Below the pieces are notes generated by a model. The model was not told where the DNA came from, searched no databases, and saw only the letters and a list, made by a program, of their open reading frames with translations. Below are positions 1 through 10,111 of a stretch of 10,292 bases of DNA, in pieces. The DNA lies in the IMG/VR virus record IMGVR_UViG_2681813316_000013, positions 1 to 10,292 of that record; one strand, given 5' to 3'. A program made the translations under genes and the position numbers. This DNA comes from a virus. Taxonomy: Duplodnaviria; Heunggongvirae; Uroviricota; Caudoviricetes. Within the stretch, counting starts at the first letter, position 1; each line of letters starts with the position of its first letter.

Positions 1-469
1 TGCTGCTATTGGTGGTGGGGCTGTTGCCATAGCGTCTGTGCTCATCACTGGTCCGAGTGGTGACGATGGCCTGGAAGGTGTCAGCTACATACCATACGAA
101 GATATCGTTGGCGTATGGACTGTATGTCACGGACACACCGGAAAAGACATCATGCCCGGTAAAACGTATACCGAAGCAGAATGCAAAGCCCTCCTGAATA
201 AAGACCTTGCCACGGTCGCCAGACAAATAAACCCGTACATCAACGTCGATATACCGGAAACAACGCGCGGCGCTCTTTACTCGTTCGTTTACAACGTGGG
301 CGCTGGCAATTTCAGAACATCGACGCTTCTTCGCAAAATAAACCAGGGCGATATCAAAGGCGCATGTGATCAGCTACGGCGCTGGACATACGCTGGCGGT
401 AAGCAATGGAAAGGGCTGATGACTCGCCGTGAGATTGAGCGTGAAGTCTGTTTGTGGGGGCAACAATGA
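1..469 (+). CDS. R: SAR endolysin (phage lysozyme, T4-lysozyme-like GH24 family), 5'-partial; reading frame phase starts at position 2
   Basis: Frame is open from the window edge to TGA 467-469. Translation ...[49 protein letters not shown]... has a Gly/Ala-rich signal-anchor-release segment followed by a lysozyme core with E-8aa-D-5aa-T spacing (LEG...YEDIVGVWT) as in T4 lysozyme E11/D20/T26 and phage 21 R. The true start lies upstream of the window. Confidence 0.9.
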
Positions 470-903
470 GCAGAGTAACCGCGATTATCTACGTTCTGGT
501 CATCTGCCTCATCGTCTGCCTTTCATGGGCTGTTAATCATTACCGTGATAACGCCATCGCCTACAAAGAGCAGCGCGATAAAGCCACATCCATCATCGCT
601 GATATGCAGAAGCGGCAACGTGATGTAGCAGAACTTGACGCCAGATACACAAAGGAGCTTGCTGATGCTAATGCGACTATCGAAAGTCTCCGTGCTGATG
701 TTTCTGCTGGGCGTAAGCGCCTGCAAGTCGCCGCCACCTGTGCAAAGTCAACGACCGGAGCCAGCGGCATGGGCAATGGAGAAACCCTAGGACTTACAGC
801 AGATGCTGAACTCAATTATTACCGTCTCCGAAGTGGAATCGACAGGATAACCGCGCAGGTTAACTACTTGCAGGAGTACATTAGGACGCAATGCCTTCGA
901 TGA
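466..903 (+). CDS. Rz: Rz-like inner-membrane spanin (i-spanin)
   Basis: ATG 466-468 overlaps the R stop (ATGA). N-terminal TM segment ([20 protein letters not shown]) followed by a charged, coiled-coil-like periplasmic region, immediately downstream of the endolysin gene. The ORF track's GTG start at 454 is judged less likely. Confidence 0.85.
665..790 (+). CDS. Rz1: Rz1-like outer-membrane lipoprotein spanin (o-spanin), embedded in the +1 frame of Rz
   Basis: AAGGAG at 651-656 lies 8 nt before ATG 665. Translation [41 protein letters not shown] has a signal peptide with a lipobox-like VSAC and a short Pro-rich mature part; stop TAG 788-790. Fully nested inside Rz, the classic Rz/Rz1 arrangement. 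Alternative start ATG 671. Confidence 0.65.
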
Positions 904-975
904 TAGCGATAATTTTCCCATTATCTTTTATATGCGTGATTTTAGTTAGTTTTAGTCGCAACACGAATAAAACAG

Positions 976-1002
976 AGAACCACCCGCTATACGAGTGGTT
1001 CT
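976..1002. terminator. Convergent (bidirectional) terminator-like hairpin between Rz and a minus-strand ORF
   Basis: 8-bp stem AGAACCAC (976-983) / GTGGTTCT (995-1002) with an 11-nt loop. On the minus strand it is followed by CTGTTTTATTCG (good U-tract) and begins 17 nt after the stop of the minus ORF 1020-1250. On the plus strand the downstream tract (GATTTACACTTTT) is weaker. Confidence 0.4.
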
Positions 1003-1019
1003 GATTTACACTTTTGAAA

Positions 1020-1250
1020 CTAAAAGCTAAATACTTGAGCAAGAACAGCTAACGCTGCGCAAAAAGCAGCCCGTTTATTCCATTTACTTTGTATTTCAAT
1101 GGCTTTAAAACAACCCAGTGATGAGAAACTGCCTTGTTCCGTTTTTGGTGGGTGTTCTTTGGAAGATGCAAAACATGAAATAATCCAAAAAATGGCGGAA
1201 AAAATTCCAAAAATTATTGAAGGCAAATGATGCTCTTTCAAAAACTCCAT
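1020..1250 (-). CDS. Hypothetical small membrane protein (76 aa), moron candidate in the position where lambda carries bor but unrelated to Bor
   Basis: 76-codon ORF with a true ATG start (complement of 1248-1250) in roughly 40% GC DNA. Predicted TM helix (PSIIFGIFSAIFWIISCF) and hydrophobic C-terminus (AAFCAALAVLAQVF). Followed on its own strand by the hairpin plus U-tract at 976-1002. Only a weak SD (GAGAG); no family recognised. Confidence 0.35.
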   Translation of the reverse strand: MEFLKEHHLPSIIFGIFSAIFWIISCFASSKEHPPKTEQGSFSSLGCFKAIEIQSKWNKRAAFCAALAVLAQVFSF

Positions 1251-1862
1251 GACTTAACTCTCTTAAAAGTTGCTAAACATCGCTCGCAAACAAGAAAGAA
1301 AAGTTCTGTTGCGAGCACTCCACAATTTAAACGCCACACAAGCAGCTATTAGGTGGACGGTTCCAAGATTGCTATCAACTGCCACCCGAATACCGTCAAA
1401 ACTTGACGTCCAACCAAGAATTATTGAGTTGTAAACTCAACGCAATGATCTGGTTGGTATAAATGTGACATATGTCATGAATCGACTAGTTGAGATAGTC
1501 AAGATGGGCTTGCTTGACATCATCACCACAACCGGAGCCAACAATGGCAGATTGCGTTACCCAGATTTGATAAAGGCATTTTAGCCTGACATAACTATGC
1601 ACTGTATCGTCGCCGTATTCCCGCATCAACAGAGACCACAGCCCGAGAGGGAGACTCCTCTGCGCGAGTGTGCGGGGATAATCAAAAACGATACACACCG
1701 GGGTTTACCGTGTTAACGGAGCGCGGCGTTGTCCCCTCATGGTCGCTGGTCCGGTGCGATGGTGGAAGAAACCGGACGATGTGTTACCTCGCAAACTCTG
1801 TTATGTCATGTGTCTGATTTGTGATTTAAGTCGGATAATTGTCATTGCCATTAAGCAGAGGA

Positions 1863-1904
1863 TTGATGACCGACAGGGCTGCATTGTTAGAATAAGACTT
1901 ATTC
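1863..1904 (+). promoter_or_regulatory. Candidate sigma70 promoter with extended -10 and overlapping palindromic operator upstream of the TonB-C lipoprotein gene
   Basis: -35-like TTGATG (1863-1868), extended -10 TGtTAGAAT (1885-1893), and a perfect 7-1-7 palindrome GAATAAG-A-CTTATTC (1890-1904) overlapping the -10 and predicted start site, about 22 nt upstream of ATG 1926. Confidence 0.3.
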
Positions 1905-1925
1905 TTATCTATGCCGGGAATAAAA

Positions 1926-2252
1926 ATGAAAAGAAATCTTCCGTTAATTATTTTGTTGTCTTCTTTGGTTATGGGCTGTACGCAACATAAAACAGATATG
2001 CCTCGACAGTTGGTTAAGGCATTACCACAATATCCGGCCTATGCCGCGGCAAATTATATAAAGGGACGGGTTGATGTGAAGTTTGATATTGGTGCTGATG
2101 GTACTGTCACCCGAATTGAGTTTATCCGTTCAGAGCCGCACCATCTGTTTGATGAGCAGGTTGTAAAGGCGATGGCAAAATGGCGATTTGAGAAGGACAA
2201 GCCGCGTAAAGGCGTGAAGAAAACATTTATCTTTAGTCCTTCAGCACCCTGA
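1926..2252 (+). CDS. Lipoprotein with TonB C-terminal domain (free TonB-CTD, no TonB N-terminal anchor or Pro-rich spacer)
   Basis: Translation MKRNLPLIILLSSLVMGC/TQHK... has a signal peptide with lipobox-like VMGC and +2 Thr. The mature part ...PQYPAYAAANYIKGRVDVKFDIGADGTVTRIEFIRSEPHHLFDEQVVKAMAKWRFEKDKPRKGVKKTFIFSP matches E. coli TonB C-domain motifs (YPxxA...G.V.VKFD...DG.V...P...F...V..AM..WR.E..KP..G) as I recall them. Alternative start ATG 1911. Confidence 0.8.
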   Translation: MKRNLPLIILLSSLVMGCTQHKTDMPRQLVKALPQYPAYAAANYIKGRVDVKFDIGADGTVTRIEFIRSEPHHLFDEQVVKAMAKWRFEKDKPRKGVKKTFIFSPSAP

Positions 2253-2711
2253 TTATTTTATCAGAAGTTAATTATCACTCTGTTGCTATTCAGTACATCC
2301 CTGCAGGGTAAAGTCTTGTTTCGCCGGATATGAAGATGAAATATTGTTAGAAGACAGTAGCTACCGGTTCCTGTAACCGAACGTTCATTTCTCGTTATTT
2401 TTCATGCTGGCCGGGCGCAGGTGCTTTGCATCTGTTGCCAGCCTTCTCCTGCAGGCTTCAATAACCCATGCCGAAAAATTACCCGATCCCTTACGTTCAA
2501 GGGCAATATGGATTTGATTAATCATCTGGTTTGGGAAGCTTTATTTTTTGATGACATTGTGTTTTTCCGTGTTCAGTGCTGCTGATTTGTATTGTCTTAA
2601 GATGTCTTTACGTTAAGTTGACACAGATCAATTAATGCATGACTTGGACAAAATTGATTATTTGTCGTGGTTTTATGGTGTACGTGGGATGTGTGATGGT
2701 ATTTATATAAA

Positions 2712-2726
2712 TGATAATTATTATCA
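2712..2726. promoter_or_regulatory. Fur-box-like perfect 7-1-7 palindrome TGATAAT-T-ATTATCA
   Basis: TGATAATTATTATCA is a perfect inverted repeat. The enclosing 19-mer ATAAATGATAATTATTATC (2707-2725) matches the classical Fur consensus GATAATGATAATCATTATC at 15/19 positions. It lies 37 bp upstream of cosN in AT-rich DNA; the target gene is unclear. Confidence 0.3.
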
Positions 2727-2762
2727 TTTATTGGGTCCTTTCCGGCGATCCGGCAGGCTACG

Positions 2763-2774
2763 GGGCGGCGACCT
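2763..2774 (+). other. cosN: cosN, cohesive-end nicking site of the phage genome (lambda / phage 21 type 12-nt cohesive end)
   Basis: GGGCGGCGACCT at 2763-2774 followed by CGCGGGTTTTCGCTATTTATGAAAATTTTCCGG, which matches the lambda left end as I recall it. It sits about 195 bp upstream of the small terminase start, the same spacing as lambda cosN to Nu1. Confidence 0.85.
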
Positions 2775-2810
2775 CGCGGGTTTTCGCTATTTATGAAAAT
2801 TTTCCGGGAT

Positions 2811-2915
2811 CCATGTCCGGTTTCTCTTCAAGTTAACTATATGAAAAATATAAAAACAGGTCTTCTGTGAACCGGACATGAACAAAAAACAGACATGTAA
2901 ACCGGACATGACCGG
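2811..2915 (+). repeat. cosB: cosB-like region: three copies of a CCGGACATG element (candidate small-terminase binding sites R3/R2/R1) separated by an AT-rich spacer
   Basis: CATGTCCGG (2812-2820, inverted), AACCGGACATG (2870-2880) and AACCGGACATG (2900-2910, followed by ACCGG), plus a partial GACATG at 2892-2897. The A/T-rich stretch 2821-2860 between first and second copy is where an IHF-type bend site would be expected. All lie between cosN and the small terminase gene. Confidence 0.6.
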
Positions 2916-2957
2916 TTTTGTTGTGATTGTGAGGTGAGAGTTTTTGCGAGGTGAGGA

Positions 2958-3467
2958 GTGGCTACGCAGACTGAAGTTGCCAGGCATTTAAGTCTGACCG
3001 ATCGCCAGCTTCGCAGATTGCAGAAATTGCCGGGTGCCCCGATATCGAATAAGCGAGGGCAACTGGATCTGGATGCCTGGCGCGATTTTTACATATCGTA
3101 TCTGAGGAGAAGTAAAAACGATGTGCCTGATGGCGATAGCGAAGACGACTATGAGGAGAAATTGCTTATTGCCAGATGGGAACTGACAGCAGAACAGGCT
3201 GTTACACAGCAGTTAAAAAATGAGGTGTCAAAAGGAAAACTTATTGACACCGGGTTCTGTATTTTTGCCCTCAGTAAGCTGGCAATGGCGTTATCCAGTA
3301 CGCTTGATTCCATCCCTTTATCCATGCAGCGACAGTTTTCTGATTTAACACCGCGCCATCTTGACCATCTGAAAACCCTTATTGCTAAGGGGGCAAATCA
3401 GTGTGCGCGGGCAGGGGATAAATTACCGGATTTACTCGATGAATATATCAGAGCAACAACTGAATAA
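2958..3467 (+). CDS. nu1: Terminase small subunit (Nu1 family)
   Basis: GTG start at 2958, with GAGG at 2948-2951 six nt upstream. Translation aligns with lambda Nu1, especially the C-terminal two-thirds (…TGFCIFALSKLA…LDSIPLSMQRQFSDL…HLDHLK…LPDLLDEYI…). The N-terminal DNA-binding region is diverged. Stop TAA 3465-3467 overlaps the large terminase start. Confidence 0.9.
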   Translation: MATQTEVARHLSLTDRQLRRLQKLPGAPISNKRGQLDLDAWRDFYISYLRRSKNDVPDGDSEDDYEEKLLIARWELTAEQAVTQQLKNEVSKGKLIDTGFCIFALSKLAMALSSTLDSIPLSMQRQFSDLTPRHLDHLKTLIAKGANQCARAGDKLPDLLDEYIRATTE

Positions 3468-5367
3468 TATGATGGCTGCCGTTTCGGTTGCGCTGCAGCC
3501 TCTGGTCAGGGTTGTACCAATGACGGCAGTTGAATGGGCTGATCAAAATTATTATCTGCCTAAAGAATCTTCATATGGTGAGGGAGAATGGAAAACGCTG
3601 CCATTCCAGATCGCCATTATGAACTGTATGGGTAACGACCAGGTTCGCACGGTTAACCTGATTAAATCTGCCCGTGTTGGCTATACAAAGATGTTGCTGG
3701 GGGTGGTCGGGTATTTTATTGAGCATAAATCCCGAAACAGTCTGCTTTTTCAGCCCACGGATTCTGCCGCTGAAGATTTTATGAAGTCTCACGTGGAGGC
3801 GACGATTCGGAACGTGCCATGCCTGAAAGACCTTTCCCCATGGCTGGGGCGTAAACATCGTGACAATACTCTCACGCTGAAACGCTTTTCATCGGGCGTC
3901 GGTTTCTGGTGCCTGGGCGGCGCTGCCGCCAAAAACTACCGTGAAAAATCCGTGGACGTGGTCTGCTATGACGAACTTTCCTCGTTCGAGCCGGATGTCG
4001 AAAAAGAGGGCTCGCCAACCCTGCTGGGGGATAAGCGTATTGAGGGGTCGGTGTGGCCAAAATCCATTCGCGGCTCGACGCCTAAAATCAAAGGCACCTG
4101 CCAGATCGAAAAAGCCGCTAACGAGTCGGCGCATTTTATGCGTTTTTATGTGCCCTGCCCGCACTGTGGGGAGGAGCAGTATCTGAAATTTGGCGATGAG
4201 TCCACGCCTTTTGGGCTTAAATGGGAGAAGGACAGCCCTGAAAGTGTTTTCTACCTCTGTGAACATCATGGCTGCGTGATCCATCAGTCTGAACTGGACC
4301 AGAGCAACGGGCGGTGGATCTGTGAAAACACGGGCATGTGGACCCGTGACGGTCTGACGTTTTTCAGCGCCCGGGGTGATGAAATTCCGCCGCCGCGCTC
4401 CATCACGTTCCATATCTGGACGGCGTACAGTCCGTTCACCACCTGGGTACAGATTGTCTATGACTGGCTGGATGCACTGAAAGATCCCAACGGCCTGAAA
4501 ACCTTTGTGAACACCACGCTGGGCGAGACCTGGGAAGAGGCCGTGGGCGAAAAACTCGATCACCAGGTACTGATGGATAAGGTGGTGCGTTACACGGCGG
4601 CGGTGCCTGCCCGGGTGGTTTATCTGACGGCGGGCATTGACTCGCAGCGAAACCGTTTTGAGATGTATGTCTGGGGATGGGCTCCGGGAGAGGAAGCCTT
4701 TCTGGTGGATAAAATCATCATTATGGGGCGTCCTGATGAGGAAGAGACGCTGTTACGTGTGGATGCGGCGATCAACAAAAAATACCGCCATGCGGATGGC
4801 ACCGAAATGACTATTTCCCGTGTCTGCTGGGACACCGGGGGGATCGATGGTGAAATTGTTTATCAGAGATCAAAAAAACACGGTGTTTTCCGGGTGCTGC
4901 CGGTAAAAGGCGCATCTGTCTATGGCAAGCCGGTGATCACCATGCCAAAAACCCGCAATCAGCGGGGCGTGTATCTGTGTGAAGTGGGAACGGACACCGC
5001 AAAAGAAATTCTCTATGCCCGTATGAAAGCCGATCCCTCGCCTGCGGATGAAGCCACGTCGTATGCCATCCGTTTTCCTGATGATCCGGAGATTTTTTCG
5101 CAGACAGAGGCGCAGCAACTGGTGGCGGAAGAGCTGGTGGAGAAGTGGGAAAAAGGAAAGATGCGTCTGCTGTGGGATAACAAAAAGCGGCGTAACGAAG
5201 CGCTGGACTGCCTGGTGTATGCCTACGCGGCATTACGTGTGTCCGTGCAACGCTGGCAGCTTGATCTGGCTGTACTGGCAAAATCCCGGGAAGAAGAGAC
5301 GACCCGGCCAACCCTGAAAGAACTGGCAGCGAAGCTGTCCGGAGGAGTGAATGGTTACAGTCGCTGA
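3439..5367 (+). CDS. A: Terminase large subunit (gpA family; ATPase and nuclease)
   Basis: ATG 3439 gives MNISEQQLNN..., colinear with lambda gpA (MNISNSQVNR...) over about 642 aa, including TAVEWAD.NYYLPKES, KSARVGY.KMLLG, GFWCLGG.AAKNYREKSVDV, GDKRIEGSVWPKSIRGSTPK, WTAYSPFTTWVQIV, VNTTLGETWE, KKRRNEALDC. The ORF track's start at 3382 is an upstream in-frame extension with no support. Confidence 0.95.
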   Translation: MNISEQQLNNMMAAVSVALQPLVRVVPMTAVEWADQNYYLPKESSYGEGEWKTLPFQIAIMNCMGNDQVRTVNLIKSARVGYTKMLLGVVGYFIEHKSRNSLLFQPTDSAAEDFMKSHVEATIRNVPCLKDLSPWLGRKHRDNTLTLKRFSSGVGFWCLGGAAAKNYREKSVDVVCYDELSSFEPDVEKEGSPTLLGDKRIEGSVWPKSIRGSTPKIKGTCQIEKAANESAHFMRFYVPCPHCGEEQYLKFGDESTPFGLKWEKDSPESVFYLCEHHGCVIHQSELDQSNGRWICENTGMWTRDGLTFFSARGDEIPPPRSITFHIWTAYSPFTTWVQIVYDWLDALKDPNGLKTFVNTTLGETWEEAVGEKLDHQVLMDKVVRYTAAVPARVVYLTAGIDSQRNRFEMYVWGWAPGEEAFLVDKIIIMGRPDEEETLLRVDAAINKKYRHADGTEMTISRVCWDTGGIDGEIVYQRSKKHGVFRVLPVKGASVYGKPVITMPKTRNQRGVYLCEVGTDTAKEILYARMKADPSPADEATSYAIRFPDDPEIFSQTEAQQLVAEELVEKWEKGKMRLLWDNKKRRNEALDCLVYAYAALRVSVQRWQLDLAVLAKSREEETTRPTLKELAAKLSGGVNGYSR

Positions 5368-5557
5368 ACTGCAGGCGCTGCGTCAGGCGCGCCTTGATTT
5401 ATTAACCGGTAAACGGGTGGTGTCTGTCCAGAAAGATGGTCGCAGAATTGAATATACGGCGGCTTCTCTGGATGAGCTTAACCGGGCGATCAATGATGCG
5501 GAGTCGGTACTGGGGACAACCCGGCGTCGCCGTCGTCCGCTGGGAGTGAGGTTATGA
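5351..5557 (+). CDS. W: Head-tail joining / head completion protein gpW
   Basis: 68 aa; LTGKRVVSVQKDGRRIEYTAASLDEL matches lambda W ([27 protein letters not shown]). Start overlaps the end of the large terminase gene; stop overlaps the portal start (ATGA). Confidence 0.9.
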   Translation: MVTVAELQALRQARLDLLTGKRVVSVQKDGRRIEYTAASLDELNRAINDAESVLGTTRRRRRPLGVRL

Positions 5558-7146
5558 AACGAACGCCTGTCCTGATTGATGTGAACGGCGTTCCGCTTCG
5601 TGAGAGTCTCAGCTACAACGGGGGCGGTGCAGGATTTGGCGGGCAAATGGCGGAGTGGTTGCCACCGGCGCAGAGTGCCGATGCGGCCCTGCTGCCCGCG
5701 TTGCGTCTGGGGAATGCCCGGGCAGATGATCTGGTGCGCAATAACGGAATAGCGGCCAATGCGGTGGCCCTGCATAAGGATCACATTGTCGGGCATATGT
5801 TTCTTATCAGCTACCGTCCGAACTGGCGCTGGCTGGGGATGCGGGAGACCGCAGCAAAAAGCTTTGTCGATGAGGTGGAGGCGGCCTGGTCGGAATACGC
5901 CGAAGGGATGTCTGGCGAGATCGACGTGGAAGGAAAACGCACGTTCACGGAATTTATCCGTGAAGGTGTGGGCGTTCATGCGTTTAACGGCGAAATCTTT
6001 GTGCAGCCGGTCTGGGATACGGAAACCACGCAGTTATTCCGTACGCGTTTTAAAGCCGTGAGTCCGAAACGGGTGGACACGCCAGGACACGGTATGGGGA
6101 ACCGTTTTCTGCGGGCCGGGGTGGAGGTCGATCGATATGGCCGTGCCGTTGCGTACCATATCTGTGAGGATGATTTTCCGTTCTCCGGGAGTGGACGATG
6201 GGAACGGATCCCGCGTGAACTTCCCACCGGGCGTCCGGCCATGCTGCATATTTTCGAGCCGGTGGAGGACGGGCAGACCCGTGGGGCCAACCAGTTTTAC
6301 AGCGTCATGGAACGGCTGAAGATGCTCGATTCCCTGCAGGCAACACAGCTTCAGTCGGCCATTGTGAAAGCCATGTATGCAGCGACGATTGAAAGTGACC
6401 TTGATACCGAAAAGGCCTTTGAATATATCGCCGGTGCGCCGCAGGGGCAGAAGGATAATCCGCTTATTAATATTCTGGAGAAGTTCTCCAGCTGGTATGA
6501 CACGAATAACGTGACGCTGGGTGGTGTCAAAATTCCGCACCTTTTCCCCGGGGATGATCTGAAACTACAGACTGCGCAGGATTCAGACAATGGATTTTCG
6601 GCGCTTGAACAGGCGCTGCTGCGGTATATCGCCGCCGGTCTTGGCGTTTCCTACGAACAGTTGTCCCGTGATTACTCGAAGGTCAGTTATTCAAGTGCCA
6701 GGGCCTCTGCCAATGAGTCGTGGCGCTATTTTATGGGGCGGCGAAAATTTATTGCGGCCCGGCTGGCCACGCAGATGTTTTCCTGCTGGCTGGAAGAGGC
6801 ACTTCTTCGGGGGATTATCCGTCCGCCACGGGCGCGTTTTGATTTTTATCAGGCGCGATCAGCCTGGTCACGGGCAGAGTGGATTGGTGCCGGAAGAATG
6901 GCCATTGACGGGCTCAAGGAGGTTCAGGAATCGGTGATGCGCATTGAGGCCGGACTGAGCACGTATGAGAAAGAGCTGGCGCTGATGGGCGAGGATTATC
7001 AGGACATTTTCCGCCAGCAGGTCAGGGAATCTGCAGAGCGGCAAAAAGCCGGACTCTCACGTCCGGTGTGGATAGCGCAGGCGTATCAGCAGCAGATAGC
7101 GGAGAGTCGCAGGCCGGAAGAGGAGACAACACCCCGTGAGACGTAA
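5554..7146 (+). CDS. B: Portal protein (gpB family)
   Basis: 530 aa, colinear with lambda gpB: GNARADDLVRNNG, EPVEDGQTRGAN.FYSVME..KMLD.LQ.TQLQSAIVKAMYAATIES, LQTAQD.DNG.S..EQ.LLRYIAAGLGVSYEQLSR, ARASANESW.YFMGRRKF, GRMAIDGLKEVQE.VM.IEAGLSTYEKE. Confidence 0.95.
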   Translation: MKRTPVLIDVNGVPLRESLSYNGGGAGFGGQMAEWLPPAQSADAALLPALRLGNARADDLVRNNGIAANAVALHKDHIVGHMFLISYRPNWRWLGMRETAAKSFVDEVEAAWSEYAEGMSGEIDVEGKRTFTEFIREGVGVHAFNGEIFVQPVWDTETTQLFRTRFKAVSPKRVDTPGHGMGNRFLRAGVEVDRYGRAVAYHICEDDFPFSGSGRWERIPRELPTGRPAMLHIFEPVEDGQTRGANQFYSVMERLKMLDSLQATQLQSAIVKAMYAATIESDLDTEKAFEYIAGAPQGQKDNPLINILEKFSSWYDTNNVTLGGVKIPHLFPGDDLKLQTAQDSDNGFSALEQALLRYIAAGLGVSYEQLSRDYSKVSYSSARASANESWRYFMGRRKFIAARLATQMFSCWLEEALLRGIIRPPRARFDFYQARSAWSRAEWIGAGRMAIDGLKEVQESVMRIEAGLSTYEKELALMGEDYQDIFRQQVRESAERQKAGLSRPVWIAQAYQQQIAESRRPEEETTPRET

Positions 7147-8641
7147 TCTTTCACACATTATTGCCGCAGCATTCAATGAACCGCTGCTTCTGGAGCCCGC
7201 CTATGCGCGGGTTTTCTTTTGCGCGCTCGGGCGCGAGATGGGGGCAGCAAGTCTTTCGGTACCACAGCAGCAGGTACAGCTTGATGCTCCCGGAATGCTG
7301 GCTGAAACGGACGAGTACATGGCCGGAGGTAAACGACCGGCCCGTGTTTACCGGGTGGTGAACGGTATTGCTGTACTGCCGGTGATCGGCACGCTGGTGC
7401 ACCGGCTGGGGGGGATGCGGCCATTTTCCGGAATGACAGGCTATGACGGCATTGTCGCCTGTCTTCAGCAGGCAATGGCGGATAGCCAGGTGCGGGGCGT
7501 ACTGCTGGACATTGACAGTCCGGGCGGGCAGGCCGCCGGCGCGTTTGACTGCGCTGACATGATTTACCGCCTCCGTCAGCAGAAGCCGGTCTGGGCACTG
7601 TGCAATGACACGGCCTGTTCTGCAGCCATGCTGCTGGCGTCGGCCTGCTCCCGACGGCTGGTTACCCAGACATCCCGTATCGGCTCCATTGGCGTGATGA
7701 TGAGCCATGTCAGCTATGCCGGTCATCTGGCGCAGGCCGGTGTGGATATCACGCTGATTTACTCAGGGGCGCACAAGGTGGATGGCAATCAGTTTGAAGC
7801 CTTACCGGCAGAGGTTCGCCAGGACATGCAGCAGCGCATTGATGCGGCGCGCCGGATGTTTGCCGAAAAAGTGGCCATGTTTACCGGTCTGTCTGTTGAT
7901 GCCGTCACGGGAACAGAGGCCGCCGTTTTTGAAGGTCAGTCCGGCATTGATGCCGGGCTGGCGGATGAATTAGTCAATGCGTCGGATGCCATCAGTGTGA
8001 TGGCCACGGCGCTGAACAGTAATGTCAGAGGAGGCACTATGCCGCAATTAACTGCAACGGAAGCCGCCGCGCAGGAGAACCAGCGAGTGATGGGGATCCT
8101 GACATGCCAGGAAGCGAAAGGACGTGAACAGCTTGCCACGATGCTGGCAGGACAACAGGGCATGAGCGTTGAACAGGCCCGGGCGATTCTGGCCGCGGCG
8201 GCACCGCAGCAGCCGGTGGCATCCACGCAGAGTGAAGCCGATCGCATTATGGCGTGTGAAGAAGCGAACGGTCGTGAACAACTGGCGGCAACGCTGGCGG
8301 CGATGCCGGAGATGACGGTGGAAAAAGCCCGCCCGATCCTGGCTGCTTCACCGCAGGCGGATGCCGGACCCTCACTCCGTGATCAGATCATGGCACTGGA
8401 TGAGGCAAAAGGGGCTGAGGCGCAGGCTGAACAGCTGGCTGCCTGCCCGGGAATGACTGTGGAGAGCGCCCGGGCTGTGCTGGCTGCGGGATCAGGTAAG
8501 GCAGAACCGGTCTCTGCATCCACAACCGCCCTGTTTGAACGCATCATGGCGAACCATTCACCGGCAGCGGTACAGGGTGGCGTGCCACAGACGTCAGCAG
8601 ACGGTGATGCGGACGTGAAAATGCTCATGGCTATGCCATGA
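7136..8641 (+). CDS. C: Prohead protease / scaffold fusion protein (gpC family, ClpP/S49-like peptidase domain with C-terminal scaffold domain)
   Basis: GTG start 7136 overlapping the portal stop. The N-terminal two-thirds aligns with lambda gpC (AFNEPL.LEPAYARVFFCAL, NGIAVLPV.GTLV, SGMTGY.GI...LQQA, GGQ.AGAFDCAD.I.R.R..KPVWAL, RRLVTQT.R.GSIGVMM.H, GV.ITLIYSG.HKVDGN, DAGLADELVN). The C-terminal third carries scaffold-type motifs. Confidence 0.9.
   Translation: MRRNLSHIIAAAFNEPLLLEPAYARVFFCALGREMGAASLSVPQQQVQLDAPGMLAETDEYMAGGKRPARVYRVVNGIAVLPVIGTLVHRLGGMRPFSGMTGYDGIVACLQQAMADSQVRGVLLDIDSPGGQAAGAFDCADMIYRLRQQKPVWALCNDTACSAAMLLASACSRRLVTQTSRIGSIGVMMSHVSYAGHLAQAGVDITLIYSGAHKVDGNQFEALPAEVRQDMQQRIDAARRMFAEKVAMFTGLSVDAVTGTEAAVFEGQSGIDAGLADELVNASDAISVMATALNSNVRGGTMPQLTATEAAAQENQRVMGILTCQEAKGREQLATMLAGQQGMSVEQARAILAAAAPQQPVASTQSEADRIMACEEANGREQLAATLAAMPEMTVEKARPILAASPQADAGPSLRDQIMALDEAKGAEAQAEQLAACPGMTVESARAVLAAGSGKAEPVSASTTALFERIMANHSPAAVQGGVPQTSADGDADVKMLMAMP
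8039..8641 (+). CDS. nu3: Nu3-like scaffolding protein from an internal in-frame start within C
   Basis: ATG 8039 is in frame with C and preceded by GAGGAGG (8028-8034). The product MPQLTATEAAAQ... (200 aa) corresponds to the Nu3 portion of lambda C/Nu3 and contains the RIMGIL..EEA.GRE-type motif. Confidence 0.55.
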   Translation: MPQLTATEAAAQENQRVMGILTCQEAKGREQLATMLAGQQGMSVEQARAILAAAAPQQPVASTQSEADRIMACEEANGREQLAATLAAMPEMTVEKARPILAASPQADAGPSLRDQIMALDEAKGAEAQAEQLAACPGMTVESARAVLAAGSGKAEPVSASTTALFERIMANHSPAAVQGGVPQTSADGDADVKMLMAMP

Positions 8642-8677: not shown

Positions 8678-9025
8678 ATGGTAACGAAAACCATCACTGA
8701 ACAGCGTGCGGAAGTACGTATTTTTGCCGGTAATGATCCGGCTCATACCGCCACAGGCAGCAGCGGGATTTCCTCGGCAACACCGGCACTGACGCCCCTG
8801 ATGCTGGATGAAGCTACCGGGAAACTGGTGGTCTGGGACGGACAGAAAGCCGGTAGTGCGGTTGGCATACTGGTACTGCCGCTTGAAGGCACAGAGACGG
8901 TACTGACGTATTACAAGTCGGGGACCTTTGCGACGGAGGCAATCCGCTGGCCTGACAGTGTGGATGAACACAAAAAGGCAAATGCCTTTGCCGGCAGTGC
9001 CCTGAGTCACGCGGCGCTGCCGTAA
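8678..9025 (+). CDS. D: Head decoration protein (gpD family)
   Basis: AGGAGG at 8663-8668, then ATG 8678. 115 aa with NDPAHTAT, TPLMLD...KLV.WDG...G.AVGIL, YKSGTF, AFAG.A.S shared with lambda gpD. Confidence 0.9.
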   Translation: MVTKTITEQRAEVRIFAGNDPAHTATGSSGISSATPALTPLMLDEATGKLVVWDGQKAGSAVGILVLPLEGTETVLTYYKSGTFATEAIRWPDSVDEHKKANAFAGSALSHAALP

Positions 9026-9082: not shown

Positions 9083-10111
9083 ATGGGATTGTTTACGACC
9101 CGCCAGTTACTCGGTTATACCGAACAAAAAGTGAAATTTCGTGCGCTGTTTCTGGAGCTGTTTTTCCGCCGTACGGTGAATTTCCATACCGAAGAGGTGA
9201 TGCTGGACAAAATTACCGGAAAAACGCCGGTGGCGGCCTATGTCTCCCCGGTTGTTGAAGGAAAAGTGCTGCGTCATCGCGGTGGTGAAACCCGCGTGTT
9301 ACGTCCGGGCTACGTCAAGCCGAAACACGAATTTAATTACCAGCAGGCGGTTGAGCGTCTTCCCGGTGAAGATCCGGCTCAGCTGAACGACCCGGCCTAC
9401 CGTCGTCTGCGTATCATCACCGATAACCTCAAACAGGAAGAGCATGCCATTGTCCAGGTGGAAGAAATGCAGGCGGTGAATGCCGTGCTGTATGGCAAAT
9501 ACACCATGGAAGGGGATCAGTTTGATACTGTCGAGGTGGATTTTGGACGCTCTGAAGGAAATAACATTGAGCAGGCCGACGGTAAAAAATGGTCTGAGCA
9601 GGACCGTGATACGTTTGATCCGACGCATGATATTGACCTCTACTGCGATCAGGCCAGCGGTCTTGTGAATATTGCCATTATGGACGGTACTGTCTGGCGT
9701 CTGCTGAATGGTTTTAAGCTGTTCCGCGAAAAACTGGATACCCGTCGCGGCTCAAATTCACAACTCGAAACGGCAGTGAAAGACCTGGGAGCGGTGGTGT
9801 CTTTCAAAGGGTATTACGGTGATCTGGCCATTGTGGTGGCGAAAACGTCTTATGTGGCAGACGACGGTACCGAAAAACGTTATCTGCCGGTGGGCACACT
9901 GGTCCTGGGGAATACGGCAGCAGAGGGCATTCGTTGCTATGGTGCCATTCAGGATGCGCAGGCGTTGTCCGAAGGTGTGGTGGCCTCTTCCCGTTATCCG
10001 AAACACTGGCTGACTGTGGGCGATCCGGCCCGTGAATTCACCATGACGCAGTCCGCACCGCTGATGGTGCTGCCGGATCCGGATGAGTTTGTGGTGGTGC
10101 AGGTGAAATAA
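9083..10111 (+). CDS. E: Major capsid protein (gpE family, HK97 fold)
   Basis: AAAGGA upstream of ATG 9083. 342 aa colinear with lambda gpE: FTTEKV.L..I, YVSP.V.G.V.R.RGG, PGYVKPKHE, DPAYRR.RII..N...EE.AI.QVEEMQAV.AVL.GKYTM.G, KLDTRRGSNS.LETAVKDLG, YPK.W.T.GDPAREFTM.QSAPLM.L.DPDEFV.VQ. Confidence 0.95.
   Translation: MGLFTTRQLLGYTEQKVKFRALFLELFFRRTVNFHTEEVMLDKITGKTPVAAYVSPVVEGKVLRHRGGETRVLRPGYVKPKHEFNYQQAVERLPGEDPAQLNDPAYRRLRIITDNLKQEEHAIVQVEEMQAVNAVLYGKYTMEGDQFDTVEVDFGRSEGNNIEQADGKKWSEQDRDTFDPTHDIDLYCDQASGLVNIAIMDGTVWRLLNGFKLFREKLDTRRGSNSQLETAVKDLGAVVSFKGYYGDLAIVVAKTSYVADDGTEKRYLPVGTLVLGNTAAEGIRCYGAIQDAQALSEGVVASSRYPKHWLTVGDPAREFTMTQSAPLMVLPDPDEFVVVQVK

What the first reader, a model, noticed from the sequence alone, without database searches (positions are those of the whole stretch)
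1863..1904. Autonomous promoter with a perfect palindromic operator in front of the TonB-C lipoprotein gene
A -35-like TTGATG, an extended -10 TGtTAGAAT, and a perfect 15-bp palindrome GAATAAGACTTATTC overlapping the -10 and start site sit about 22 nt upstream of the lipoprotein ATG. This fits a moron expressed independently of the phage late operon and controlled by a dimeric repressor. The upstream GATAATTGTCATTGCCATT (1834-1852) matches the Fur consensus at only 11/19, so iron control of this promoter is not supported.
Basis: seen in the sequence. Interest (0 to 1): 0.5.

Follow-up and report, generated by a model that had tools for sequence, protein, structure and literature searches.

The report
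Own promoter of a prophage TonB-decoy gene
A small extra gene in an E. coli prophage (a lipoprotein carrying the end domain of TonB) very probably has its own ordinary promoter, but the neat palindrome on that promoter is missing in a sister version that is still expressed, so nothing shows it is a repressor site.

Summary
The palindrome is in fact 17 bp (8-1-8, 1889-1905).

The window is a lambda-like E. coli prophage: R, Rz, cos, Nu1 to E. Bases 1779-2374 are a moron. Related phages lack exactly this segment. It is flanked by AACCGGAC/AACCGAAC and has 41% GC against 55% in the late genes.

The promoter is best read as ATGACC-16 nt-TGtTAGAAT. This is the best + strand sigma-70 match in the window.

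The gene has three diverged lineages. Their upstream regions share only three islands: AGTCrGATAAT, the -10 with the left arm, and SD-ATG. The 17 bases 1882-1898 (the -10 with most of the left arm) are invariant in 85 type A loci.

The right arm of the palindrome is deleted in type B and degenerate in type C. It is as variable as background in type A. Type B in LF82 prophage Perceval is transcribed about 8-fold above prophage background in lysogens, flat across conditions (published RNA-seq).

No second copy of the palindrome exists in a whole carrier phage.

Verdict: an autonomous moron promoter is supported. An operator is possible but unsupported. This is an ordinary kind of feature. Just upstream (1597-1778) lies a conserved structured RNA with no Rfam family.

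The parts
1597..1778 (+). Conserved structured RNA element of lambdoid late transcripts. It is context only. Its 3' edge is the left border of the moron.
   Evidence: About 400 phage records hold it, phage lambda itself among them. A blast of window 1500-2900, which also spans cos, matched 4507 of 5426 E. coli genomes, but the weakest listed rows cover only the cos-proximal part. 98.3% of 1107 cells are paired in 31 diverse copies, with 5 compensatory pairs. There are 117 G.U cells against 6 A.C cells, so the + strand is the folded one. No Rfam family matches.
1770..1777 (.). Left copy of the short direct repeat AACCGGAC that flanks the moron.
   Evidence: The empty site in L008 reads GGAAGAAACCGAACGTTCATTTC, with a single copy.
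1779..2374 (+). Type A TonB-C moron: upstream region, gene and 3' tail.
   Evidence: Phages without the gene join window 1778 to 2375 (L008) or 1776 to 2709 (L006, L007). GC is 40.8% against 55.3% in the late genes. The whole unit is present in 414 of 5426 complete E. coli genomes.
1820..1841 (+). Conserved upstream island TGTGATTTAAGTCGGATAATTG. It contains a CRP-like TGTGA-N6-TCGGA (1820-1835) and GATAAT (1834-1839).
   Evidence: AGTCrGATAAT is kept in all three lineages (79-85% identity against 25-54% around it). It sits 54, 55 or 53 nt from the -10. Its function was not tested.
1866..1871 (+). Weak -35-like hexamer ATGACC, 16 nt from the -10.
   Evidence: The hexamer is variable in type A (1865, 1869, 1870 vary) and not conserved in type B.
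1885..1893 (+). Extended -10, TGtTAGAAT.
   Evidence: Best + strand promoter score in the window. 0 of 9 columns vary in 85 loci. The homologous hexamers are CAGAAT (type B) and TAAAAT (type C).
1889..1905 (.). Perfect 8-1-8 palindrome AGAATAAG-A-CTTATTCT. It overlaps the -10 and the predicted start near 1899-1901.
   Evidence: The right arm is absent in type B, 6 of 8 pairs are kept in type C, and the two type A variants (1899 T>G, 1904 C>T) both break it.
1916..1920 (+). Shine-Dalgarno-like GGGAA, 5 nt before the ATG.
   Evidence: The SD-ATG block is 92% identical between types A and B.
1926..2252 (+). 108-aa lipoprotein: signal peptide with lipobox VMGC (Cys codon 1977-1979), then a complete TonB C-terminal domain.
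   Evidence: Pfam TonB_C, E 2.4e-15. E about 1e-16 to E. coli TonB C-terminal domain structures 1u07, 2gsk_B and 2grx_C over residues 24-104.
2375..2382 (.). Right copy of the flanking direct repeat, AACCGAAC.
2385..2525 (-). DUF3950 / YlcI-YnfO family small gene, convergent with the TonB-C gene. It lies outside the moron but is always linked to type A.
   Evidence: Pfam DUF3950, E 8e-19. Present about 135 nt downstream in 77 of 77 type A loci and 0 of 83 type B/C loci. Also present without the TonB gene in L008.

Best explanation
Bases 1779-2374 are a moron inserted at the 3' edge of a conserved late-transcript RNA element in a lambda-like E. coli prophage.

Its gene encodes an outer-membrane-sorted lipoprotein that consists of a complete TonB C-terminal domain.

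In the lysogen it is transcribed from its own sigma-70 promoter of the extended -10 type (TGtTAGAAT, 1885-1893). The -35 is weak and dispensable. Transcription is predicted to start at about 1899-1901 and gives a leader of about 25 nt. During lytic growth the gene is also read through from the late promoter, because it lies on the same strand with no terminator in front.

The 17-bp palindrome is a lineage-specific feature built on the -10 and start region. Its left arm is conserved because it is the promoter. Its right arm is not needed for expression and shows no sign of constraint. The palindrome is therefore most likely not a conserved operator.

Shown: the insertion polymorphism, the sequence footprints, and lysogenic expression of the type B homologue.

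Inferred: the exact start site, promoter use in type A, and the protein's role. The likely role is a decoy for the TonB boxes of outer-membrane transporters, which would block TonB-dependent phages and colicins.
For: Moron status.
- Empty sites in L006, L007 and L008, and 8-bp flanking repeats.
- GC 41% against 55%.
- The unit is present as a whole in 414 of 5426 genomes.

Promoter.
- Best + strand PWM hit, rank 3 of 20,512. The tool scan gives 9/12 plus TG.
- A/B identity is 88% over 1882-1898, against 25% for 1842-1881 and 6% for 1899-1915.
- The -10 hexamers are homologous in three lineages.
- 1882-1898 is invariant in 85 type A loci: 0 of 17 variable columns against 45 of 130 elsewhere upstream, Fisher p = 0.0016.

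Expression.
- LF82 Perceval 'TonB fragment' LF82_160 is type B, 70% identical, with the same -10 island.
- It is listed among genes at least 5-fold above prophage background (8-fold, Table 1).
- It reads log2 5.0-6.6 in all ten samples, against 2.3-4.3 for the flanking Rz and small terminase genes (PMC9928086).

Palindrome not needed or constrained.
- The right arm is missing in type B.
- Right-arm variability is 2 of 8 against 43 of 123 background, p = 0.71.
- No further copy with up to 3 mismatches in the window, in a 50-kb Stx1a carrier phage, or in Perceval.

Protein.
Against: - No transcription start has been mapped for either type.
- The expression data are for type B only. Its best -10 candidates (TATATT or CAGAAT) are not identical to type A's.
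- The palindrome is better than chance (P about 0.01-0.05). It sits exactly where repressors bind.
- Type C keeps 6 of 8 pairs, two of them through compensatory transitions. My rough estimate for that is p about 0.07-0.3.
- Type B's flat expression is also what a variant that lost its operator would show.
- My PWM uses remembered frequencies. At the 9/12 consensus level, promoter-like sites are not enriched in the window.
- No clear intrinsic terminator ends the type A unit.
Confidence: 0.6

Rival explanations
1. The palindrome is a true operator for a dimeric repressor that occludes the -10 and start site, so type A is expressed only when the repressor leaves. Type B is a natural operator deletion and is therefore constitutive. 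The repressor would be host-encoded, or the always-linked small DUF3950 protein.
For: - Perfect 8-1-8 dyad over -11 to +6 of the predicted promoter. P is 0.011 for a 7-1-7 palindrome in the 147-nt region, and 0.01 copies are expected in the window.
- Type C keeps 6 of 8 symmetric pairs, with two double transitions.
- Type B, which lacks the right arm, is flat across LB, DMEM and macrophage.
- Type A is linked to DUF3950 in 77 of 77 loci and type B/C in 0 of 83.
Against: - The right arm is no more conserved than background, and its only variants break the symmetry without compensation.
- The sequence identity of the dyad between A and C (10 of 17) equals the background.
- There is no second site in a whole carrier phage, so it is not part of a phage regulon.
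- The DUF3950 gene also occurs without the TonB gene. Its linkage is explained by the two moving as one 1-kb block.
- I recognised no known E. coli regulator motif in it (from memory only).
Confidence: 0.2
2. Iron control after all. The palindrome plus the following TTATC is a degenerate Fur box (GATAAG-AATAAG-T-CTTATT, 1891-1909 on the minus strand) over the -10 and start site. It would repress the TonB decoy when iron is plentiful.
For: 13 of 19 matches to the Fur consensus, the best in the upstream region. Only 2.6% of shuffles of the 40-nt core promoter reach 13. The layout is 6-6-1-6, and the gene is TonB-related.
Against: - 7% of shuffles of the whole 147-nt region reach 13 of 19. The window holds 11 positions with 13 or more matches.
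- Only 8 of 14 matches to the 7-1-7 Fur core (my count).
- Not conserved in types B and C.
- Type B shows no change in macrophages (log2 fold change 0.26, p 0.13) where host tonB rises 1.36. Type B lacks the site, however, so this is weak evidence.
Confidence: 0.07
3. The functional promoter signal is the conserved upstream island. Either GATAAT (1834-1839) is the real -10, which would put the palindrome in a 5' leader of about 80 nt. Or TGTGA-N6-TCGGA (1820-1835) is a class I CRP site, about 72 nt upstream of the TAGAAT promoter's start, that activates it.
For: - AGTCrGATAAT is the best conserved upstream block in all three lineages.
- It keeps a 53-55 nt distance to the -10 although the sequence between is 25% identical.
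- 8 of 10 matches to the CRP core in every lineage (my count).
- LF82 expression is lowest after 1 h in glucose-rich DMEM (5.0-5.3 against 6.6 at 6 h).
Against: - As a -10, GATAAT has no usable -35 or TG and ranks 133rd in the PWM scan.
- 8 of 10 CRP-core matches are expected several times per 10 kb by chance (my estimate).
- The expression differences are at most 3-fold and confounded with growth phase.
Confidence: 0.1
4. There is no autonomous promoter. The gene is made only as part of the Q-dependent late transcript, and the promoter-like motifs are chance matches in AT-rich DNA. Alternatively the palindrome acts as an RNA hairpin in that transcript.
For: The gene is on the late strand with no terminator between Rz and it. 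Promoter-like sites are not enriched over shuffles.
Against: - The type B homologue is transcribed in uninduced lysogens 4- to 16-fold above the flanking late genes.
- The -10 is a phylogenetic footprint.
- The hairpin is only -2.8 kcal/mol and 53 of 200 shuffles fold as well. Leader folds have positive z-scores.
Confidence: 0.05

Closest known systems
Phage morons with their own promoter, for example lambda bor and lom and the HK97/HK022 morons (Hendrix and colleagues' definition; from my own knowledge and PMC3594210, seen in title and abstract only)
   Same: An extra gene present or absent at a fixed junction between conserved modules. It has lower GC, its own sigma-70 promoter, expression from the repressed prophage, and encodes an envelope lipoprotein, as bor does.
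   Different: It lies in the same orientation as the late operon, whereas lambda bor is opposite. No clear terminator of its own was found in type A. The insertion point is the 3' edge of a conserved RNA element.
Extended -10 (TGn) sigma-70 promoters
   Same: TG one base upstream of a 5/6 -10 hexamer, with a poor and unconserved -35.
   Different: Known only from sequence here. The start site and the -35 independence are untested.
Repressor operators that overlap the -10 and +1 (LexA, Fur and lambda CI-type 17-bp operators)
   Same: A 17-bp dyad with a central base pair lying over the -10 and the start site.
   Different: Only one half is conserved among homologous promoters. There are no further sites and no known cognate protein. 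The matches are 13 of 19 to the Fur consensus and 8 of 14 to its 7-1-7 core.
Periplasmic TonB C-terminal fragments that dominantly inhibit TonB-dependent transport, phi80 and colicin M (work from the Braun laboratory, recalled from memory). Also the phage lipoproteins Cor (phi80, N15, HK022) and Llp (T5), which block FhuA.
   Same: A TonB C-terminal domain delivered to the periplasm without the energy-coupling N-terminus. It is a prophage-encoded lipoprotein likely to interfere with TonB-dependent receptors.
   Different: Natural, lipid-anchored, and predicted to go to the outer membrane. No phenotype has been reported. It is unrelated in sequence to Cor and Llp.

Membership tests
Phage moron | Present or absent at a defined site between conserved genes in related phages | tested here: met
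   L008 joins window 1778 to 2375. L006 and L007 join 1776 to 2709. The segment is flanked by AACCGGAC and AACCGAAC.
Phage moron | Base composition unlike the surrounding phage genes | tested here: met
   GC 40.8% (1779-2374), against 55.3% in the late genes and 51.3% in the lysis genes.
Phage moron | Own promoter | tested here: inconclusive
   There is a strong sequence match and a conservation footprint. No start site has been mapped.
Phage moron | Own terminator | tested here: inconclusive
   No terminator-like site on the + strand between 2253 and 2800 in the scan. There is only a weak CGGTT/AACCG hairpin at about 2364-2378. Type B has a better hairpin about 100 nt after its stop codon.
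Phage moron | Expressed from the repressed prophage | tested here: inconclusive
   Met for the type B homologue in LF82: 8-fold over background, with flanking late genes near the floor (PMC9928086). No data were found for type A.
Extended -10 sigma-70 promoter | TGn directly upstream of a -10 hexamer that has A at position 2 and T at position 6 | tested here: met
   TGtTAGAAT at 1885-1893. Type B has TGtCAGAAT. Type C has TAAAAT without a correctly placed TG.
Extended -10 sigma-70 promoter | Transcription start 6-8 nt after the -10 | not testable with these tools
   The supplements of the Sakai dRNA-seq paper are not held.
Repressor operator over the core promoter | Dyad symmetry overlapping the -10 and +1 | tested here: met
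   An 8-1-8 perfect palindrome at 1889-1905.
Repressor operator over the core promoter | Both half-sites conserved among homologous promoters | tested here: not met
   The right arm is deleted in type B, 6 of 8 pairs are kept in type C, and the type A variants at 1899 and 1904 break it. Right-arm variability equals background.
Repressor operator over the core promoter | Further sites or a cognate regulator in the same element | tested here: not met
   The moron's own palindrome is the only match with up to 3 mismatches in the 50,000 bases searched of the 50,953-bp phage Lys8385Vzw and in the window; Perceval, which carries type B, has no match at all. A scan of genome contigs gave only scattered AT-rich taxa.
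Repressor operator over the core promoter | Specific protein binding and derepression on mutation | not testable with these tools
   Needs EMSA or pull-down and reporter assays.
Fur box | Good match to GATAATGATAATCATTATC at the promoter | tested here: inconclusive
   11 of 19 at 1834-1852 and 13 of 19 at 1891-1909 on the minus strand. P(13 or more) is 0.07 in the region.
Fur box | Iron-responsive expression | tested here: inconclusive
   Only type B data exist, and type B lacks the site. It shows no change in macrophages while host tonB rises.
TonB (energy transducer) | C-terminal domain PF03544 | tested here: met
   E 2.4e-15, 57 bits against a cut-off of 24.6. E about 1e-16 to the E. coli TonB C-terminal domain, 34 of 79 residues identical, PQYP motif kept.
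TonB (energy transducer) | N-terminal membrane anchor that contacts ExbB/ExbD, and a proline-rich spacer | tested here: not met
   108 aa in all. Residues 1-18 are a lipoprotein signal peptide (VMGC) and only about 15 residues precede the domain. It cannot transduce energy, so it is a TonB-domain protein and not a TonB.

The most novel reading that the evidence does not exclude
The palindrome is a real operator that makes a TonB-decoy lipoprotein conditional. A host regulator (a Fur-like site) or the always-linked small DUF3950 protein would keep type A off until a signal arrives. Type B prophages lost the right arm and express the decoy constitutively. This would be a regulated superinfection-exclusion or colicin-immunity switch that trades iron uptake against protection.
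Probability: 0.15. Interest if true: 0.6.

Novelty: new member of a known kind. Interest (0 to 1): 0.3.

Why it matters
Morons with their own promoters are how prophages change their hosts. This one is present in about 8% of complete E. coli genomes (type A alone), including Stx1 phages of O157, O103 and O111.

It encodes a natural version of the TonB C-terminal fragment that, as I recall, blocks TonB-dependent uptake when over-produced in the periplasm. Knowing that it is expressed in lysogens from a simple promoter makes its function easy to test. The tests would be resistance to T1, phi80 and colicins, and the cost in iron uptake.

The promoter itself is unremarkable, and the operator claim does not yet deserve weight.

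The neighbouring structured RNA (1597-1778) is the more unusual object. It is conserved from lambda to 933W-like Stx2 phages and has no Rfam family.

Tried and rejected
1. RNA hairpin, attenuator or SD-sequestering leader. The palindrome folds at -2.8 kcal/mol and the right arm pairs with the SD at -3.5 kcal/mol. All z-scores are near or above 0. Rejected.

2. Phage CI/Cro-type regulon. No second site with up to 3 mismatches in the window, in the 50-kb Stx1a phage Lys8385Vzw or in LF82 Perceval. Rejected.

3. Host regulon, tested by an exact-pattern scan of 185,579 species genomes. Uninformative.

4. DeoR. TGTTAGAA is, from memory, half of the 16-bp deo operator TGTTAGAATTCTAACA, and a second ATTGTTAGAA lies at 2343-2352. 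Neither copy has the other half. Rejected. ArgR, EvgA, PhoP, RcsB, Lrp and MetJ motifs, also recalled from memory, do not fit in spacing.

5. A copy of the promoter driving another gene. The only partial hit (H95, window 1779-1904) is an IS1 truncation.

6. Start-site data. The Sakai dRNA-seq paper has no supplements held. Literature searches for the protein, its accessions or the sequence strings found only the LF82 paper.

7. Relatives outside E. coli that would widen the footprint. None were found in species-representative genomes. The protein search gave only E. coli-type sequences.

8. Rfam, for anything in 1-3500. Nothing at E up to 1. Only chance hits at E up to 10.

9. PADLOC. No defence-system model matches the lipoprotein or DUF3950. 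PHROGs files the lipoprotein under 'Rz-like spanin' (phrog_1267), which I read as a mis-annotation by neighbourhood.

Full report
**Context.** The window is the late-region start of a lambda-like E. coli prophage.
- Lysozyme R is at 38-469 and Rz at 454-903 (Pfam).
- cosN, read from the sequence as GGGCGGCGACCT, is at 2763-2774.
- Nu1 is at 2958-3467. Downstream come large + strand ORFs at 3382-5367, 5351-5557, 5554-7146, 7136-8641, 8678-9025 and 9083-10111. By collinearity with annotated relatives they are the large terminase subunit, head-tail joining protein, portal, S49 peptidase, decoration protein and major capsid protein.
- A 99.9% identical copy lies in E. coli strain Z1323PEC0011.
- The gene at 1926-2252 encodes 108 aa: a lipoprotein signal peptide (…LVMGC, Cys18), then a complete TonB C-terminal domain. 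Pfam TonB_C gives E 2.4e-15. E. coli TonB C-terminal domain structures give E about 1e-16, with 34 of 79 residues identical and the PQYP motif kept.
- Residue +2 is Thr (Ser or Ala in the other lineages). By the established +2 rule the protein should go to the outer membrane.

**Observation.**
- The palindrome is really 8-1-8: AGAATAAG-A-CTTATTCT, 1889-1905.
- TTGATG lies 19 nt from TAGAAT. The tool scan instead pairs ATGACC (1866-1871) with TAGAAT at 16 nt, 9/12 plus TG.
- In a rough position-weight scan (hexamer frequencies from memory) this site is the best on the + strand and 3rd of 20,512 positions.
- At the plain 9/12 level, promoter-like sites are not enriched over shuffles.
- A perfect 7-1-7 palindrome is expected 0.62 times per window. 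It occurs in 1.1% of shuffles of the 147-nt upstream region, or 5.3% with any loop of 0-6 nt.

**It is a moron.**
- Phages that lack the gene join window 1778 directly to 2375 (L008) or 1776 to 2709 (L006, L007).
- The empty site carries one copy of AACCGAAC. The window has AACCGGAC at 1770-1777 and AACCGAAC at 2375-2382.
- GC is 40.8% against 55.3% in the late genes.
- The 596-bp unit is found whole in 414 of 5426 complete E. coli genomes, always chromosomal. These include O157:H7, O103, O111 and O145 strains. Stx1a-converting phage records also carry it, at 92.7% identity over window 1546-2537.
- No relative was found outside E. coli.

**Three lineages give a footprint.** The lineages are:
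- Type A (the window, and a 90%-identical variant P0003).
- Type B (B771 and LF82 Perceval, 70% amino-acid identity).
- Type C (P0006, 72%).

These were aligned upstream of the ATG. A/B identity by segment:

| Segment | A/B identity |
|---|---|
| 1779-1828 | 44% |
| 1829-1841 | 85% |
| 1842-1881 | 25% |
| 1882-1898 | 88% |
| 1899-1915 | 6% |
| SD-ATG block | 92% |

- Three islands therefore survive: AGTCrGATAAT, ATTGTyAGAATAAGAC (the extended -10 plus the left arm), and GGAATAAAAATG.
- The homologous -10 hexamers are TAGAAT (A), CAGAAT (B) and TAAAAT (C).
- The first island stays 54, 53 or 55 nt from the -10, while the -10 to ATG distance varies from 25 to 39 nt.
- The right arm of the palindrome falls in the unconserved stretch. 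Type B lacks it through a 13-nt gap.
- Type C keeps 6 of 8 symmetric pairs, two of them by double transitions. I estimate that as only marginally unusual (p about 0.07-0.3), because both arms are A- or T-rich and all the changes are transitions.

**Within type A.** In 85 loci from IMG/VR and GenBank:
- 1882-1898 is invariant: 0 of 17 variable columns against 45 of 130 elsewhere upstream, p = 0.0016.
- Both candidate -35 hexamers vary.
- The only two variants inside the palindrome lie in the right arm and break it: 1899 T>G in one locus and 1904 C>T in five. The right arm's 2 of 8 is no different from the background 43 of 123.

**Expression.**
- The LF82 prophage Perceval carries the type B gene at the same place, after Rz and iss/bor and before the terminase.
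- In the supplementary tables it reads log2 5.0-6.6 in all ten samples (LB, DMEM 1 h and 6 h, macrophage 1 h and 6 h). The flanking Rz and small terminase genes read 2.3-4.3, where the floor is 2.32.
- Macrophage against medium gives log2 fold change 0.26 (p 0.13), while host tonB rises 1.36.
- A homologue with the same -10 island and no right arm is therefore transcribed independently of the late operon in lysogens, roughly constitutively.
- I found no data for type A. The Sakai dRNA-seq paper has no supplements held.

**Operator tests.**
- With up to 3 mismatches, the 17-mer occurs only once in the window, once in the 50-kb Stx1a phage Lys8385Vzw (its own copy), and not at all in Perceval. 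It is not part of a phage repressor's site set.
However, 7% of shuffles of the region reach 13, and it is not conserved in types B and C.
- The upstream island contains TGTGA-N6-TCGGA (1820-1835). It is centred about 72 nt before the predicted start, a class I CRP position. This is a lead only.
- As RNA the palindrome is weak (-2.8 kcal/mol; 53 of 200 shuffles fold as well).
- Type A is always followed by the convergent DUF3950 gene (77 of 77 loci; 0 of 83 for B/C). The two travel as one block, and the DUF3950 gene also exists without the TonB gene. A regulatory link is therefore pure speculation.

**Conclusion.**
- The moron and its autonomous extended -10 promoter are well supported by comparative sequence evidence and by expression of a homologue. 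The exact start is inferred.
- The palindrome is real and somewhat better than chance. Its right half behaves like unconstrained sequence and is dispensable for lysogenic expression.
- I rate 'operator' at about 0.2 (0.27 including the Fur version).
- The protein most likely acts as a lipid-anchored decoy for TonB boxes. This is an inference from the domain and from recalled work on periplasmic TonB fragments.

**Seen in passing.** Window 1597-1778 is a sharply bounded element found in about 400 lambdoid phage records, both lambda-like and 933W-like.
- Phage lambda has it at about 46,873-47,034.
- In 31 diverse copies a consensus structure of 36 pairs is 98.3% paired (slid controls 29-61%), with 5 compensatory pairs (reached by 1 of 500 shuffles). 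There are 117 G.U cells against 6 A.C cells, so it folds in the late-transcript sense.
- Single-sequence folding energy is unremarkable (z = -1.15 on both strands).
- No Rfam family matches.
- Different cargoes start right at its 3' edge: TonB type A, TonB type B, the DUF3950 gene, cos, and lambda's own extra genes.

Noticed in passing
window 1597-1778 (+): An element of about 180 nt with sharp borders, conserved in about 400 lambdoid phage records (lambda-like and 933W-like) and in lambda itself (about 46,873-47,034). The consensus structure is 98.3% paired over 31 diverse copies, with 5 compensatory pairs. 117 G.U cells against 6 A.C cells put it on the + (late transcript) strand. No Rfam family matches, and no paper contains its sequence. 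Different morons begin exactly at its 3' edge. It is a candidate undescribed structured RNA.
   Followed up: partly
window 2707-2731: A perfect 12-1-12 palindrome ATAAATGATAAT-T-ATTATCATTTAT, 32 nt upstream of the cohesive-end sequence. It matches the Fur consensus at 15/19, the best in the window. Lambda has TGATAATCATTATCA at the same place, just before GGGTCCTTTCCGGT. I do not know whether this is a packaging (cos) element, a protein site or chance.
   Followed up: partly
window 2053-2080 (-): The best promoter match in the whole window (TTCACA-16-TATAAT, 11/12) lies inside the TonB-C gene and points antisense towards its 5' end. The TATAAT is kept in types B and C, but it overlaps the conserved codons for ANYIKG, and the -35 changes to TTAACC.
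   Followed up: partly
window 976-1250 (-): A possible small leftward unit after Rz. It has a promoter-like TTGAAA-17-AATAAT (1241-1213), ORFs of 53-76 aa (1020-1250 matches phrog_14357 of unknown function, E 1e-6), and the strongest minus-strand terminator-like hairpin, 12 pairs at 1002-976.
   Followed up: no
window 2385-2525 (-): The DUF3950/YlcI-YnfO gene encodes 46 aa (MINQIHIALERKGSGNFSAWVIEACRRRL…). To my eye the N-terminus looks like a strand followed by a helix, as in small ribbon-helix-helix-like DNA binders, but one helix is missing. It is always linked to the type A TonB moron (77 of 77) and never to type B/C (0 of 83).
   Followed up: partly
window 2343-2352: A second exact copy of ATTGTTAGAA (the core of the -10 region) lies 460 nt downstream, in the 3' tail of the moron. 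A weak promoter-like site scores there too.
   Followed up: no
L289 2501-2700 (E. coli 14EC017): One genome keeps only window 1779-1904 of the moron. An annotated IS1 transposase gene begins 58 nt after the end of the palindrome, and the rest of the prophage is gone.
   Followed up: yes
window 1926-2252: PHROGs places this TonB-domain lipoprotein in phrog_1267, annotated 'Rz-like spanin' (E 3e-42). In phage Stx2a_WGPS9 an ORF that overlaps the RNA element is also called 'Rz-like spanin'. Both are probably annotation carried over from the neighbouring genes.
   Followed up: no
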